62,611 nucleotides of DNA from an uncultured Candidatus Saccharibacteria bacterium. GTDB taxonomy: Bacteria > Patescibacteriota > Minisyncoccia > UBA6257 > UBA11618. Positions 27,408 through 59,003 of this stretch are shown here, one piece after another (the stretch's first letter is position 1; the number at the start of each line of letters is the position of its first letter). A program made the translations under genes and the position numbers. The stretch lies in NCBI GenBank assembly GCA_964362125.1, contig CAYICS010000004.1:1-62611 (forward strand), in the 5' to 3' direction. The notes under the pieces are model-generated. The model saw only the letters and a list, made by a program, of their open reading frames with translations, made no database searches and was not told where the DNA came from.

Positions 27408-27508
27408 GTATCGATGCTAATATACGAATGAATGCGAATGATACGAATAGGAATACGGATTCGCAACCCCATTCGTAGATTCGCAAATTCGTAGATTCGC
27501 ATCGAAGC
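27408..27508. repeat. ~100-bp GTATCGATGC...GCATCGA palindromic element, copy 1
   Basis: ACGAAT/ATTCGT arrays; homologous copies at 42517, 47228, 49982, 51054, 58899. Confidence 0.9.
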
Positions 27509-27517
27509 CCAAAACCT

Positions 27518-29623
27518 ATGCCCCGTCAATATCCTATTGAAAAAGTTCGCGACATCGGCATCATTGCCCACATTGATGCTGGTAAAACCACAGTTACCGA
27601 GCGGGTGCTTTTTTACACCGGCGTTTCCCATAAAATTGGCGAAGTCCATGAAGGGACAACGGTGATGGATTGGATGGAGCAGGAAAGGGAGCGCGGCATC
27701 ACCATTACTGCTGCTGCCACAACGGCTTTCTGGATGCCGACTTACGCCAATGGTGATAAAGCTTTTGAGCATCAGATTAATATCATTGATACCCCGGGCC
27801 ACATTGATTTTACGGTTGAAGTAAAACGATCTTTACGCGTGCTGGATGGGGCGGTGGTTGTTTTTGATGGCGTCGCCGGTGTTGAACCCCAATCAGAAAC
27901 CAACTGGCATTATGCTGATGATTACAAAGTGCCGCGCATTTGTTTTATCAATAAACTCGACCGCACCGGCGCCAATTGGGAGAATAGTTTAAAGGCGATT
28001 CAAGAACGGCTTAATCCTCAGGCCGCGCCTATTCAAATTCCTATTGGTCTCGAATCCAATTTCGAGGGCGTGATTGATCTTTTGCGAATGAAAGCTTATT
28101 ACTTCGAGGGTGAAAAAGGCGAGCGGGTTGTGGAAAAAGAAATTCCGAAAAATCTTCTGGAGGAAGCCGAAAAGCGGCGGCGGCAGCTGGTGGAAAAAAT
28201 TGCCGAACAGGATGACGAGCTGCTTCATAAATTTTTAGAACATCAGGAGATTTCGCTGGAGGATTTAAAACGTGTCTTGCGCAAAGCCTGCATTGAAGTG
28301 AAATTAATTCCGGTGTTGACCGGCGCCGCCTTAAAAAACAAGGGAGTGCAGCTGGTTTTGGACGCGGTGGTTGATTATTTGCCGTCGCCGGTTGATTTGC
28401 CGTCCATCAAAGGTATTAATCTGAAAACCGACGCTGAAGAGATCCGTTTGGCGGCTGATGACCAGCCATTGGCGGCTTTGGCTTTTAAAATCGCCGCCGA
28501 CCCCTTTGTCGGTTCGTTGACTTTCTTCCGGGTTTATTCCGGCACTCTCAAGCGCAGCACCTATATTTTGAATTCTACCAAAAACTCACAAGAACGAGTG
28601 GGGCGGATTGTTCGTCTTCACGCCAATCACCGCGAGGAGGTGAATGAGATTTACGCCGGTGAAATCGGCGGCTTGGTGGGAATGAAAGATACCAGCACCG
28701 GCGACACTTTATCTGATCCCGATCATCCCATCTTGCTGGAGAAAATAATTTTCCCCGAGCCGGTGATCTCTATGCGTATTTCTCCCAACACCAAAGCCGA
28801 TCAGGAAAAAATGGGCATTGCCCTGCGCCGTTTGTCAGAGGAAGACCCGACTTTCCGGGTGAGCGGCGATCAGGAGACAGGCGAGACGATTATTTCCGGA
28901 ATGGGGGAGTTGCATTTGGAAATTATCGTGGACCGGATGAAGCGGGAGTTTACCGTTGAAGCTAAGACCGGCCGGCCGCAGGTGGCTTATAAAGAAACAG
29001 TGACGGCTCTGGCTGAAGCTGAAGGTAAATATATTCGCCAGACCGGCGGTCGGGGGCAATATGGTCATGTCTGGCTGAAAGTAGAGCCGCGGGAGCGGGG
29101 AGCGGGTTTTGAATTTGTTGATGCTATTAAAGGCGGCGCCATTCCTAAAGAATTTATTCCGGCAGTGGAGAAAGGCGTGAAGGAGGCGATTGATAAAGGT
29201 GTAGTGGCTCATTATCCGATGGTGGATTTGCAGGCAACTCTTTACGATGGTTCTTACCACGAAGTTGACTCTTCGGAGATTGCTTTTAAAATCGCCGGCT
29301 CGATGGCTTTTCAGGAAGCGGCTAAGCGGGCCCGGCCAGTGATGCTGGAACCAATTATGAAAATTCAGGTGATTATGCCCACGGAATTTTTGGGAGATGT
29401 AACCGGGGATTTGTCAGCCAAGCGCGCCAAAATTGAAGCGATGAACGATCGTTTTAACATCAAAATGATAGATGCTAAAGTGCCGCTGTCCGAGATGTTT
29501 GGCTATGCCACCTCATTGCGTTCCATGACTCAGGGCCGGGGCTCATTCACGATGGAGTTTTCTCACTACGAGGAAGTTCCGAACAATATCGCGCAGTTAA
29601 TAATTGAGGGGAAAAGGAAGTAA
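27518..29623 (+). CDS. fusA: Elongation factor G
   Basis: [26 protein letters not shown]; 701 aa. Confidence 0.99.
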
Positions 29624-29685
29624 TGATTATTCCTAAATAAAAATATAAATTTTGTTATTTATTACATCTCTTAATTTGTTAATTT

Positions 29686-29793
29686 GTTACATCCCTTATT
29701 CGTACGAATAAGGGATGTAACGTCTGGGTGAAAGTAAGGCGCCAGGAAGAAATCAGGAAGACGTCAGGAAAAATTCAGGAAAATTTCAGGGGT
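29686..29793. promoter_or_regulatory. Perfect 36-bp palindrome plus five CAGG motifs at 11-bp spacing upstream of the ArsR gene
   Basis: Palindrome 29686-29721; CAGG at 29743, 29754, 29765, 29776, 29787. Confidence 0.55.
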
Positions 29794-29812
29794 TTGTGTT
29801 ATTATTTAATTT

Positions 29813-30073
29813 ATGAGGGAGATTGAGAGAAGTTTGAAGGCCTTGGCCAATCGGCGGCGGTTGTCGATTGTTAAGTATTTGAAACAGAATAGAGAAGCGC
29901 CGGTGGCGGATGTTGCCGCAGCGATCAATCTTTCTTTCAAGGCGACCTCAAAGCATCTGGCTTTGCTTTCGGCGGCGGATATTGTTGATAAGGAACAGCG
30001 GAGTGTCCAGGTTTTCTATCGCTTGTCAGATAATTTAAGGTCGCCGGTTAAACATATAATTTCACTACTCTAA
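29813..30073 (+). CDS. ArsR/SmtB-family transcriptional regulator
   Basis: KALANRRRLSIV...wHTH SKHL..L...V.YRL. Confidence 0.9.
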   Translation: MREIERSLKALANRRRLSIVKYLKQNREAPVADVAAAINLSFKATSKHLALLSAADIVDKEQRSVQVFYRLSDNLRSPVKHIISLL

Positions 30074-56519: not shown

Positions 56520-56557
56520 ACTTCAATTATAGCATTTTTTCTGGTAAAATACTCCTC

Positions 56558-58582
56558 ATGGGCAAGAAAAAGACCAAAGAGAGAATTGAGAAATTAAAGA
56601 AGGAGATTAACCGCTACCGCTATGCTTATCATGTGCTGGATAAGTCTTTGATTTCTGAGGAGGCCCTGGACTCTTTAAAAAAAGAGCTATTTGATCTGGA
56701 ACAGCAGTTTCCGGATTTAATGACCCTAGACTCGCCGACGCAAAGAGTGGCAGGTAAGCCGCTGGATAAATTTACTAAGGCCCGCCACGAACAGCCGATG
56801 CTGTCTTTTAATGACACTTTTTCTGAAGAAGATATGCAGGCCTGGTTGACGCGTCTGAAGAATCATCTAGGCCATTCTATCAAACCTCGTTTTTATTGCG
56901 AGCTGAAGATTGACGGCTTGGCTATTGAACTGATTTATGAGAATGGTATTTTGGTCCAAGCTTCAACCCGGGGCGATGGTATTATCGGTGAAGAGGTCAC
57001 CCAGAATCTTAAAACCATCGAGGCCATTCCTTTGCGGCTGGAGCCGGGGGATTGGCCGCGGCATCTGGTGGTGCGGGGAGAGGTGTTTTTGAGTAAAAAA
57101 GAACTGGAGCGAATCAATAAAGAATTAGCTAAAGCTGGTAAGCCCACTTATGCCAATCCTCGTAACTTAGCCGCCGGCTCCATCCGTCAACTCAATCCCC
57201 AAGTCACCGCCAGCCGCAAGCTGGACTCTTTTCAATATGACATTGTCAATGAATTAGGCATTAAATATCATTCAGAAGAACATCAGGTTTTAAGCCGGTG
57301 GGGCTTTAAGACCAATCCCCATAACAAAGTTGCTAATTCTCTTGAAGAAATTGTTAAATTACAGAAATACTGGAACCAGCGCCGCGACCAGTTGTCTTAT
57401 GAGATTGATGGTTTGGTGGTGATTGTTGACAGTAATGATGATTTTTCTGCCGGCGGAGTGATCGGCAAGGCGCCCCGGGCGGCCGCGGCTTTTAAGTTTT
57501 CCCCCAAGGAAGCAGCCACAGTCGTCGAAGATATTATTGTTCAGGTGGGCCGCACCGGCACCTTGACGCCCGTGGCCAAACTGCGGCCGGTTGGGGTTGG
57601 CGGAGTGACTATCAGCAACGCCACTTTACATAACTACGACCAAATTCAGCGCCTTGGTTTGAAAATCGGCGACACAGTTGTTGTCAGTCGTGCCGGCGAC
57701 GTCATTCCTAAAATTTCCAAAGTTTTAAAAAACTTGCGCAGCGGCAAAGAAAAAGAATTTAAGATGCCAACCAAGTGTCCGGTTGATGGCTCAGCAATTA
57801 AGCATGAGGGCGCCATCTGGCGTTGTGCCAATCCAATTTGCGGCGCCCAACAGCGGGAGCGGCTCTATCACTTTGTTTCCCGGGGAGCTTTTAATATTGA
57901 GGGATTAGGTTATAAAATTGTTGACCGTTTTATTGAAGAGGGATTAATCAGTGATGCCGCTGATATTTTTACTTTAGAAAAAGAGGAGATTGAGGTTTTA
58001 GAAAGATTCGGTGAAAAATCGGCGGAGAATATTGTTACGGAAGCGGCAGCGAAAAAGAAAATCACTCTGCCGCGGTTCATTTATTCTTTAGGTATCCTTC
58101 ATGTTGGCGAGGAAACAGCAAACCTGCTGGCGCAGGGAATTTCCAATTTCCAATTACCAATTACCAAACCGACAGATGTAGCGAAGACATTAAATAAATT
58201 TTCTATTGAAGATCTGCAAAAATTCCGGGACATCGGGCCGATCGTGGCTAAGAGTATTTATGATTGGTTCCGGGAGCTGCGTAATTTGAAATTATTGGAG
58301 AGATTGGAGAAGGTGGGGGTGAAGATAGAGAGTTTAAAGTTAAAAATGGAAAATGGAAAATTAAGGAATAAAATTTTTGTATTAACCGGCCAACTTGAGT
58401 CAATAAGCCGCGAGCAGGCCAAAGAAAAAATCCGGGCCTTGGGCGGCAATATCAGCGAATCGGTTTCTAAAAAAACCAGCTTCGTGGTTATGGGCAGTGA
58501 GCCCGGATCAAAACTGGAGAAAGCCAAAAAACTGGGAGTGAAAACCATTGTGGAAAAAGAGCTATTGACGATGTTAAAATAA
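56558..58582 (+). CDS. ligA: NAD-dependent DNA ligase
   Basis: ELKIDG, STRGDG, VGRTG, NATLHN, C4 zinc finger, C-terminal BRCT. Confidence 0.99.
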
Positions 58583-58586
58583 TCAC

Positions 58587-58892
58587 ATGTCGATTATTGA
58601 TAAAAAATCACTTCAGCACCTAGCTAAATTGTCTCGGCTGGAATTGACTGCGGCTGAATCCTCAAAGCTGCTTCAAGACTTGCAGGAGATTTTGAATTAT
58701 TTTGAAGAATTAAAAAAAGTTAATACAGAAAAAGTCGAGCCGATGACCGGCGGCCATCGGTTAGTTAATATTTTTCGCGAGGATGTTTTAGATCTGGATC
58801 GCCGCTCTCAGACCATCAGCGACCCGGGAAGAATTATTGAAGCTTTCCCTGAAAGTGAACGGGGCTTTAACAAAGTATCAAGAGTGCTATAG
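58587..58892 (+). CDS. gatC: Asp/Glu-tRNA amidotransferase subunit C
   Basis: HLAKLSRL, ILNYFEEL, FREDV; upstream of gatA. Confidence 0.93.
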   Translation: MSIIDKKSLQHLAKLSRLELTAAESSKLLQDLQEILNYFEELKKVNTEKVEPMTGGHRLVNIFREDVLDLDRRSQTISDPGRIIEAFPESERGFNKVSRVL

Positions 58893-58898
58893 CACTCA

Positions 58899-59003
58899 GT
58901 ATCGATGCTAATATACGAATGAATGCGAATGATACGAATAAGCACACGAATCGATTGGCAACCCTATTCGTAGATTCGCAAATTCGTAGATTCGCATCAA
59001 AGC
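58899..59003. repeat. GTATCGATGC palindromic element, copy 6
   Basis: First 41 nt identical to copy 1; fills the gatC-gatA spacer. Confidence 0.9.

What the first reader, a model, noticed from the sequence alone, without database searches (positions are those of the whole stretch)
27408..59003. Six copies of a ~100-bp GTATCGATGC...GCATCGA palindrome in translation operons
Seen at rpsG|fusA (27408), before rplW (42517), rpsC|rplP (47228), rpsN|rpsH (49982, inverted near-copy of 47228), rplF|rplR (51054) and gatC|gatA (58899). All start 0-9 nt after a stop. They have fixed termini and variable internal ACGAAT/ATTCGT arrays. Both orientations occur, which fits a DNA-level mobile hairpin. Concentration in highly expressed operons could reflect insertion preference or selection as RNA processing or stabilising sites. 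From recollection only, similar arrays flank GxxExxY nuclease-like genes; no such gene is in this window.
Basis: partly seen in the sequence, partly recalled or inferred. Interest (0 to 1): 0.66.

Follow-up and report, generated by a model that had tools for sequence, protein, structure and literature searches.

The report
Gene-less hairpin copies of nuclease cassette
The six ~100-base palindromes wedged between ribosomal and translation genes are real, inserted, gene-less copies of a small hairpin-armed DNA cassette whose full version elsewhere in the same tiny genome carries a nuclease gene of unknown function (GxxExxY); how they spread is not shown, and I found no evidence that they serve the operons they sit in.

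Summary
Observation confirmed. Six copies lie at the stated places (8 arm matches against 0.01 expected by chance). Each folds into a 27-41-bp stem. The 618-kb genome (Patescibacteria/CPR-like) holds 13 full copies and about 6 single-arm pieces. It also holds one copy (contig C3:49767-50199) whose arms enclose a 129-aa GxxExxY / PD-(D/E)XK nuclease gene that starts in the left arm.

The hairpins are insertions. The same three spc-operon junctions are 45 nt or less in all 20 relatives, against 114-122 nt here.

A covariance model finds the family in 95 of 301 genomes of the order. It finds it in none of the 16 genomes of the same taxonomic family. Hairpin presence goes with GxxExxY genes (odds ratio 7.6).

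The arms are conserved in sequence rather than by compensatory change. Sense and antisense strands fold equally well, and both orientations occur. Three RAYT-like genes in the genome carry other repeats.

Concentration in translation operons is strong here (11 of 13 full copies). It is not a property of the family: the figure is 9 of 27 in other genomes.

Best reading: these are non-autonomous palindromic insertion elements tied to a cognate nuclease, comparable to REP/RAYT, Ssn/NTS and RPE. Mobilisation by the nuclease is inferred, not shown. I found no published description, but this scan has noted the phenomenon many times.

The parts
27406..27510 (+). Full gene-less hairpin copy between rpsG (stop at 27401-27403) and fusA (ATG at 27518)
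   Evidence: -38.2 kcal/mol, z -5.5; 109 bits
42515..42603 (+). Shortened copy (left arm reduced) between an unknown 110-aa ORF (stop at 42506-42508) and rplW (ATG at 42609)
   Evidence: 56.8 bits
47226..47329 (+). Full copy between rpsC (stop at 47220-47222) and rplP (ATG at 47339); ACTAAT-rich subfamily
   Evidence: 110.8 bits; this junction is -9 to 45 nt in 20 relatives
49980..50083 (-). Full copy between rpsN (stop at 49977-49979) and rpsH (ATG at 50094); loop inverted, near-copy of 47226-47329
   Evidence: 107.7 bits on the - strand; junction is 1-35 nt in 20 relatives; the nearest metagenome relative, L061, has the same family here with the opposite loop orientation
51052..51161 (+). 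Full copy between rplF (its stop TAG at 51052-51054 overlaps the first bases of the element) and rplR (ATG at 51177)
   Evidence: -43 kcal/mol, z -8.2; 129.5 bits; junction is -8 to 40 nt in 20 relatives
58897..59005 (+). Full copy between gatC (stop at 58890-58892) and gatA (ATG at 59008)
   Evidence: 118 bits; the same family sits at gatC|gatA in the distant genome G139 (L116)
48863..48917 (+). Left arm only, of a sister flavour (ACACGAAT units, the arm type of the GxxExxY gene at C6:13152); fills rplN|rplX and would give RplX an N-terminal extension, MRTPIHTNDANIKN
2779..2822 (-). Single arm of the same sister flavour, read in frame as the hydrophobic signal-peptide region of ORF 2698-4125

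Best explanation
The six repeats are gene-less (non-autonomous) members of a palindromic cassette family. Each arm is an inverted array of C-N-AAT words spaced about 9 nt apart.

The full-length member in the same genome (C3:49767-50199) carries a 129-aa GxxExxY / PD-(D/E)XK nuclease gene between the same arms. Its start codon comes from a CGAATG word of the left arm.

Shown:
- The hairpins entered as DNA, precisely into the short stop-to-start spacers of co-transcribed housekeeping operons.
- They are absent from the same spacers in relatives.
- They are patchily spread through the order.
- They co-occur with GxxExxY genes.

Inferred (about 30% as worded): the cognate nuclease recognises the phased words or the extruded hairpin and cuts there, and host repair or recombination then copies, inverts or deletes the element. 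Each of the four GxxExxY paralogues in this genome has its own arm flavour with its own cohort of extra copies.

Inferred: once in place, the element is transcribed with the operon and folds so that the stop and the next start codon lie at the base of one stem. It has no U-tract, and this genome uses no Shine-Dalgarno sites. That would make it a tolerated passenger rather than a selected RNA signal.

The pile-up in ribosomal operons of this genome is most likely local history. These are tight junctions where only a compact, non-terminating insert survives.
For: - Identity and copy number: 13 full copies, about 6 single-arm pieces and 1 ORF-bearing copy.
- The ORF: TIGR04256 at 66.7 bits and PF13366 at 69.8 bits. 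D69, E/D79 and K81 are conserved in 7 homologues. The AF2 model has pLDDT 88.6 with a PD-(D/E)XK core.
- Insertion: rpsC|rplP, rpsN|rpsH and rplF|rplR are 45 nt or less in 20 of 20 relatives, against 116, 114 and 122 nt here.
- Turnover: related contigs hold other hairpin families at the same junction, or the same family with the opposite loop orientation.
- Patchiness: the covariance model hits 95 of 301 genomes and 76 of 197 genera. It hits 0 of 16 genomes of the same taxonomic family. blastn finds arm pieces in two of those 16.
- Link to the nuclease: the same arms enclose GxxExxY genes in G037, G003 and G001. Co-occurrence counts are 62/33/41/165, odds ratio 7.6, P = 3e-14.
- Cognate arm flavours: four paralogues, four flavours, each with extra copies.
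- Sequence rather than structure is conserved: 21 of 23 paired columns are nearly invariant across about 35 genomes, and the N of C-N-AAT is not compensated.
- No strand bias in folding.
- No Shine-Dalgarno sites to disrupt.
Against: - Nothing was seen to move. No genome of the same genus or strain was available.
- No target-site duplication and no shared target motif.
- 33 of 95 hairpin-bearing genomes show no GxxExxY gene. The nuclease is therefore not needed for persistence, and the association is not corrected for phylogeny.
- A PD-(D/E)XK nuclease alone is not a known transposase.
- Later checks recorded in this scan for sister findings rate 'spreads through its own nuclease' at only 8-20%.
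- The strong concentration in translation operons of this genome (11 of 13) is left to history and tolerance, which is not a tested explanation.
Confidence: 0.6

Rival explanations
1. The hairpins are selected RNA elements of polycistronic mRNAs. They could be RNase III processing sites, 3' stabilisers of the upstream cistron, or devices that keep stop and start codons adjacent for translational coupling in highly expressed operons.
For: - All copies lie exactly between a stop and the next start in co-directional operons.
- The stems are long and stable.
- RNase III is encoded at C2:7027-7680.
- 11 of 13 full copies here are in translation operons.
- Other hairpin families fill further junctions of the same spc operon, here and in related CPR contigs.
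Against: - The same junctions are empty in 20 of 20 relatives.
- Both orientations occur, and the antisense strand folds better in 5 of 12 copies.
- There is almost no covariation, and mismatches recur at every fourth position.
- In 27 other genomes the family sits mainly in non-translation operons.
- Single arms survive inside coding sequences, where no hairpin can form.
Confidence: 0.12
2. This is an Ssn/NTS-like system. The repeats would mark core genes, and the cognate small nuclease would cut single-stranded DNA at them. That would modulate natural transformation or recombination of housekeeping loci rather than move the repeats.
For: - The layout matches the published Ssn family: a small nuclease gene framed by its own repeat, which is also dispersed near important genes (PMC11893778).
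- There are cognate nuclease/arm flavours.
- Word sequence is conserved rather than base pairing.
- Nuclease and hairpin co-occur.
Against: - The nuclease fold differs: PD-(D/E)XK, not GIY-YIG.
- A third of the hairpin-bearing genomes lack the nuclease.
- Gain and loss at junctions, and in-frame copies, look like insertion dynamics.
- No biochemical data exist.
Confidence: 0.1
3. These are ordinary REP/REPIN-type repeats mobilised by a RAYT (Y1, IS200-like) transposase of the same genome.
For: Three Y1_Tnp/RAYT-like genes exist, at C9:6039, C8:3600 and C3:41356. The repeats lie between genes, are palindromic and lack target duplications.
Against: - Each RAYT-like gene is flanked by its own short hairpin, about 20-35 nt long and of unrelated sequence. 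None is flanked by this family.
- The only gene found between these arms is GxxExxY.
- The elements are single hairpins of about 100 nt built from phased words, not short REP doublets.
Confidence: 0.03

Closest known systems
REP/REPIN repeats with RAYT transposases
   Same: A dispersed extragenic palindromic repeat family plus one gene in the genome that is framed by the same repeat. Gene-less copies outnumber the gene-bearing one. No target duplication.
   Different: The framed gene is a PD-(D/E)XK (GxxExxY) nuclease, not a Y1 transposase. The RAYT-like genes of this genome carry other hairpins. The element is one stem of about 100 nt built of phased C-N-AAT words. The gene's start codon and first residues are encoded by the arm.
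Ssn nucleases and their NTS/SRM repeats (Chenal et al. 2025, PMC11893778)
   Same: A small nuclease gene flanked by inverted copies of a repeat that is also scattered near important genes. Nuclease and repeat come in cognate pairs.
   Different: The fold is GIY-YIG there and PD-(D/E)XK here. Ssn repeats are 20-50 nt. Ssn activity (site-specific cutting of single-stranded DNA) has been shown, whereas nothing has been shown for GxxExxY.
Rickettsia palindromic elements (RPE) and other bacterial MITEs (review PMC10969869; PMC1779305)
   Same: Palindromic insertions of about 100 bp at gene junctions, with pieces read in frame inside essential genes. Here those genes are IleRS, MetRS, DnaG and the RpsB tail.
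   Different: RPEs have no associated gene. MITEs derive from IS elements with DDE transposases and make target duplications, and none is seen here. In coding sequence only single arms survive in this genome.
ORF-bearing intervening sequences (IVS) of 23S rRNA genes (from my own knowledge and the scan's notes; not tested here)
   Same: A stem formed by inverted ends encloses a small optional ORF. The element is transcribed within a host RNA. Empty and ORF-bearing versions coexist.
   Different: These copies lie in mRNA operons, not in rRNA. No 23S gene is in the assembly, so a link to rRNA could not be examined. The classic IVS ORF is a four-helix-bundle protein.

Membership tests
Array-armed GxxExxY (TIGR04256 / PF13366) cassette family (uncatalogued) | Arms are inverted arrays of a short word at about 9-nt spacing | tested here: met
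   C-N-AAT words are spaced 8-10 nt apart in the left arm and 9 nt apart in the right arm
Array-armed GxxExxY (TIGR04256 / PF13366) cassette family (uncatalogued) | A member with the same arms encloses a GxxExxY gene | tested here: met
   C3:49767-50199; also L030, L034 and L038 in other genomes
Array-armed GxxExxY (TIGR04256 / PF13366) cassette family (uncatalogued) | Nuclease motif intact (D ... E/D-x-K) | tested here: met
   D69 and K81 invariant, E/D at position 79; model pLDDT 88.6
REP/REPIN-RAYT | A RAYT (Y1) gene flanked by the repeat | tested here: not met
   three Y1-like genes, each flanked by other short hairpins
MITE (IS-derived) | Target-site duplication, and a parent IS with a transposase sharing the terminal repeats | tested here: not met
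   The flanks of the six copies show no direct repeat. The only ORF-bearing copy encodes a nuclease fold, not a DDE transposase
Rickettsia palindromic elements | Palindromic element read in frame within protein-coding genes | tested here: inconclusive
   Only single arms lie in frame: IleRS, MetRS, DnaG, the RpsB tail and the YqeY start. The resemblance is in behaviour; the sequence and the taxon are unrelated
23S rRNA intervening sequence | Located in a 23S rRNA helix and excised by RNase III | not testable with these tools
   No 23S gene in the assembly. rnc is present. The six copies themselves lie in mRNA operons
Ssn/NTS | GIY-YIG nuclease that cuts single-stranded DNA at its repeat | tested here: not met
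   The fold is PD-(D/E)XK. Cleavage is not testable here
Intrinsic terminator | GC-rich stem followed by a U-tract | tested here: not met
   The stems are AT-rich (GC 0.32-0.43), and the 3' flanks have no T run
Any Rfam family | Match at the gathering score | tested here: not met
   only three tRNAs match in the window

The most novel reading that the evidence does not exclude
GxxExxY nucleases and their array-armed hairpins may form an unrecognised class of nuclease-driven DNA element. The roughly 125-aa PD-(D/E)XK protein would read the phased C-N-AAT words of its own arm flavour and cut the extruded hairpin. That would drive copying into stop/start junctions and, in frame, into loops of essential genes. 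In compact CPR genomes the resulting stems would also punctuate ribosomal-operon transcripts for RNase III.
Probability: 0.15. Interest if true: 0.8.

Novelty: new variant of a known kind. Interest (0 to 1): 0.55.

Why it matters
GxxExxY (PF13366) is a very large protein family still listed as 'function unknown' (PMC3424549). This genome offers a compact, testable case. It has four paralogues, each with its own arm flavour and its own cohort of gene-less hairpins. One cohort of 13 was inserted into the most conserved operons of a 618-kb genome.

If the nuclease acts on its arms, this would add a PD-(D/E)XK counterpart to the REP/RAYT and Ssn/NTS pairs. It would also explain a large share of the 'junk' spacers and odd low-complexity protein insertions in Patescibacteria.

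For annotation, these hairpins and arm-derived peptides (IDANIRMNANDTN, signal-peptide-like LFALLVSISIL) cause wrong start and stop calls, and they break assemblies.

Tried and rejected
- Rfam scan: no family matched.
- Metagenome search for strain-level relatives through RpsH: the nearest has only 75% identity, so no recent gain or loss could be timed.
- Covariation as proof of structure: mostly invariant pairs, with only two columns showing double changes.
- G·U asymmetry, measured as sense against antisense folding: no bias.
- PDB search by sequence: nothing.
- PDB search by fold: only weak, generic PD-(D/E)XK neighbours (Cas4, lambda exonuclease, I-Bth0305I, Hjc, EndA) at TM 0.4-0.5, so no functional inference.
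- Link to 23S IVS: no rRNA in the assembly.
- RAYT hypothesis: rejected.
- ATCGAT (a ClaI-like site) in the termini as a cut site: dropped, because termini in other genomes read GATAC/GATGC without it.
- Net insertion in IleRS: the arm-derived 18 aa replace a naturally variable 12-20-aa linker and do not add length.
- Exact denominators for the enrichment test could not be computed without a full annotation. Assumed shares of 10-30% were used instead.
- Literature searches for GxxExxY, PF13366 and CPR palindromic repeats found no description.
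Full report
**Observation**

Reading the six places shows the same element each time. It has a terminus AGTATCGAT(G/A)C, then three or four C-N-AAT words (ACGAAT, GCGAAT, ACTAAT) spaced 8-10 nt apart. A short loop follows that usually contains AACCCC. Then come the complementary ATT-N-G words and the terminus GCATCGA(AGC/TACT).

A 21-mer from the left end matches 8 times in the window with up to 3 mismatches, against 0.01 expected. Each copy folds into one long stem, at -27.6 to -43 kcal/mol and z -4 to -8. 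The copy at 49980-50083 is a near-copy of 47226-47329 in reverse.

Pfam confirms the neighbouring genes: S7|EF-G, unknown|L23, S3|L16, S14|S8, L6|L18 and GatC|GatA. Each element starts 0-8 nt after a stop codon and ends 4-17 nt before the next ATG. No Rfam family matches. The stems are AT-rich and have no T run after them, so they are not terminators.

**The whole genome**

The window is contig C4 of a 618-kb, 24-contig assembly. BLAST, pattern search and a covariance model agree on 13 full copies. The seven copies outside the window lie at these places:
- rpsB|tsf
- upstream of rpsM
- after rplL
- KH-protein|trmD
- nusG|rplK
- between two unknown genes
- before cysS

So 11 of 13 copies touch translation-related genes and 9 touch ribosomal-protein genes. 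Six of the 13 lie in 5.1% of the genome (P = 2e-5). With an assumed 10-30% share of translation-flanked junctions, P is 6e-10 to 7e-5. These denominators are assumed, not counted.

At least 12 of the 13 sit between co-directional genes. Relative to transcription, 9 are 'forward', 3 are 'reverse' and 1 is ambiguous.

**The copy with a gene**

At C3:49767-50199, between rpe and a transketolase gene, the same two arms enclose a 129-aa ORF. It scores 66.7 bits against TIGR04256 (GxxExxY; cut-off 35) and 69.8 bits against PF13366 (PDDEXK_3). Its ATG is the ATG of an ACGAATG word in the left arm. Its stop lies in the right arm.

The genome has four GxxExxY genes. Each is framed by inverted arrays of a different flavour: ACGAAT, TACGAAAT, ACACGAAT or CCGAAT. 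Each flavour has further copies elsewhere in the genome.

At C1 the layout is left arm, ORF, left arm again, loop, right arm. That is a complete empty hairpin directly behind the gene. It shows one simple route between gene-bearing and gene-less forms: recombination between repeated arms.

Seven homologues keep G32, E37, Y40, D69, E/D79, K81, Q93 and Y97. The AlphaFold model is confident (pLDDT 88.6). Its PDB neighbours are only generic PD-(D/E)XK cores such as Cas4, lambda exonuclease, a homing-endonuclease domain, Hjc and EndA, at TM 0.4-0.5. No solved relative is found by sequence.

**Single arms inside genes**

Six further places hold only one arm.
- In IleRS, MetRS and DnaG the left arm is read in its only open frame, as (S/G)IDANIRMNANDTN.
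- In YqeY the arm supplies the start of the gene.
- After gltX, the right arm encodes the signal-peptide-like MIKILFALLVSISILASIPAALA.
- One right arm stands before rseP.

At rpsB|tsf the full copy has swallowed the rpsB stop codon, so RpsB ends ...QSIDANIQMNANDANKLTNDS.

In IleRS the arm-derived 18 residues occupy a linker that is 12-20 residues long and variable in 11 relatives. The arm therefore replaces a loop rather than lengthening it. The DNA match to the hairpins is 95% over 44 nt.

In other genomes of the order, the whole GxxExxY domain with arm-encoded linkers sits in frame inside LepA, SecA, RecG and other proteins. The SecA site is the same one where another genome keeps only the left-arm peptide. 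This gives a plausible origin for the single-arm pieces.

**Are they insertions?**

I took the S10-spc operon from 20 genomes of the GTDB relatives set, located by RpsC, and measured every junction.

| Junction | 20 relatives (nt) | This window (nt) |
|---|---|---|
| rpsC\|rplP | -9 to 45 | 116 |
| rpsN\|rpsH | 1 to 35 | 114 |
| rplF\|rplR | -8 to 40 | 122 |

So the hairpins are additions on this lineage.

I also took 50 metagenome contigs through RpsH.
- The nearest relative (75% identity, L061) has the same family at rpsN|rpsH. Its loop has the opposite orientation and it belongs to another subfamily.
- The next relative (L063) has a GC-rich hairpin there. This window has that same GC-rich family at rpsQ|rplN.
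- Another contig (L066) shares the CTAAAT-word hairpin at rplE|rpsN.

The same junction holding different families, and the same family appearing at different junctions, is what insertion and turnover predict. No flanking duplication and no common target word is visible.

**Distribution**

The covariance model finds the family in 95 of 301 genomes of the order, or 76 of 197 genera. It finds it in none of the 16 genomes of the window's own taxonomic family. blastn sees arm pieces and gene-bearing copies in two of those 16.

GxxExxY genes occur in 103 of the same 301 genomes. The two features co-occur in 62 genomes. Hairpins occur alone in 33 and the gene alone in 41; 165 genomes have neither. 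The odds ratio is 7.6 with P = 3e-14, not corrected for phylogeny.

**Structure or sequence?**

I used the model-based alignment of about 45 hairpins from about 35 genomes, with both strands as separate rows. In it, 97% of cells pair, but 21 of 23 pairs hardly vary. Only two columns show many double changes: GC 45 against AU 26, and AU 42 against GC 8. The N of each C-N-AAT word varies freely and is not compensated, which leaves a mismatch every fourth position.

That is the signature of a conserved word sequence. It fits recognition by a protein, or recent spread. It does not fit a structure maintained by compensatory change.

The transcribed strand folds better than its complement in 7 copies and worse in 5.

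**Is the translation-operon preference general?**

I looked at the best copy in each of 27 other genomes (Pfam check of ten flanking ORFs; the remaining flanks are named from my own reading of the translations).
- Nine neighbour a translation-related gene: tuf, frr, gatC|gatA, hisS, mnmA, tsaE twice, rplU and a tRNA.
- The other 18 lie at secD|secF, ftsE/X, ftsZ|RNR, pilB/pilC, nusA, dnaG, topA, groEL, gyrA, murF, fba, ABC transporters and similar.

Nine of 27 is what a 20-30% background would give (P = 0.07-0.42).

What is general is the position. The hairpin fills the spacer from the stop codon to the next start. gatC|gatA is occupied both here and in a distant genome (G139).

**Consequences for expression**

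None of the ribosomal-protein genes checked has a Shine-Dalgarno sequence, apart from three chance-level motif hits. The insert therefore removes no ribosome-binding site. RNase III is encoded, so cleavage of the stems in operon transcripts is possible but untested.

**Rivals**

- RAYT-type transposases. Three Y1-like genes exist, but each is framed by its own short, unrelated hairpin.
- A selected RNA role. This is not excluded. It is disfavoured by the empty orthologous junctions, the two orientations, the lack of strand bias and the weak covariation.
- An Ssn/NTS-like role. Here a nuclease would cut single-stranded DNA at marks near core genes (PMC11893778). It fits the layout, but the fold differs and no assay exists.

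**Comparison with what is known**

In the papers I could search, GxxExxY and PF13366 appear only as 'unknown'. I found no paper that describes such repeats in CPR genomes.

This scan's earlier notes describe the same cassette-plus-hairpin design many times, including in frame in lepA, recG and secA. Later checks attached to those notes accept the anatomy but rate 'spreads through its own nuclease' at 8-20%. I treated those notes as leads. The anatomy, the insertion status, the co-occurrence and the in-frame cases reported above were all re-derived here.

**Verdict**

The idea that the repeats belong to highly expressed operons, or serve them as RNA sites, is not supported beyond this one genome. 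Mobility and the nuclease's role remain inferences.

Noticed in passing
window 47750-47863: A different hairpin family (TTCAATG / CATTGAA words) fills rplP|rpmC. A similar one fills rpsN|rpsH in the metagenome contig L066.
   Followed up: partly
window 48352-48495: A GC-rich hairpin (CCCCGCCCTCTATGC ... GCTTAGAGGGCGGGG) fills rpsQ|rplN. The same family sits at rpsN|rpsH in L063.
   Followed up: partly
window 49664-49793: A CTAAAT/ATTTAG-word hairpin fills rplE|rpsN. L066 has the same type at the same junction.
   Followed up: partly
window 45980-46004 and 46505-46543: The host gene rplV (46007-46507) is bracketed by CCCTAAA x3 upstream (which overlaps the rpsS stop) and by inverted TTTAGGG arrays downstream. 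It looks as if it were the cargo of a cassette.
   Followed up: no
window 42891-44819: The rplW|rplB spacer is 1.9 kb and holds a 398-aa ORF with no Pfam match. The spacer is -10 to 35 nt in 18 of the 19 relatives in which it could be measured; in the other one the two genes are rearranged. NYN-domain and DUF5674 ORFs also sit upstream of rplW.
   Followed up: partly
G000 C9:6039-6269, C8:3600-3827, C3:41356-41583: Three RAYT/IS200-like Y1 genes of about 250 aa. Each is flanked on both sides by its own short hairpin, for example CTATTGATTTCGTAAATCAATAG. These are candidate REPtron-like units of another kind.
   Followed up: partly
L143 (G106), L146 (G225), L156 (G019), L152, L142: Whole GxxExxY domains with arm-encoded linkers lie in frame inside LepA, SecA, RecG, an Ndh-type oxidoreductase and a glycosyltransferase. 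About a third of the roughly 150 listed hits in the order lie in open frames of 300-1033 aa.
   Followed up: partly
L057 (G037), L082, L087: A hairpin family, ATGCCCAGTATTACAACTTCGA ... TCGAAGTTGTAATACTGGGTATG, occupies three spc-operon junctions. The ATG is repeated at both ends of the element.
   Followed up: no
G000 C10:7575-7686 (L007): The hairpin at rpsB|tsf has replaced the rpsB stop codon. RpsB therefore gains an arm-encoded tail, SIDANIQMNANDANKLTNDS.
   Followed up: partly
window, starts of 25 genes: Essentially no Shine-Dalgarno motifs lie upstream of ribosomal-protein and translation-factor genes in this genome.
   Followed up: partly
G000 C19:7511-7543; window 2779-2822: Right arms, read in one frame, encode hydrophobic segments like signal peptides at the N-termini of two unrelated ORFs.
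   Followed up: no
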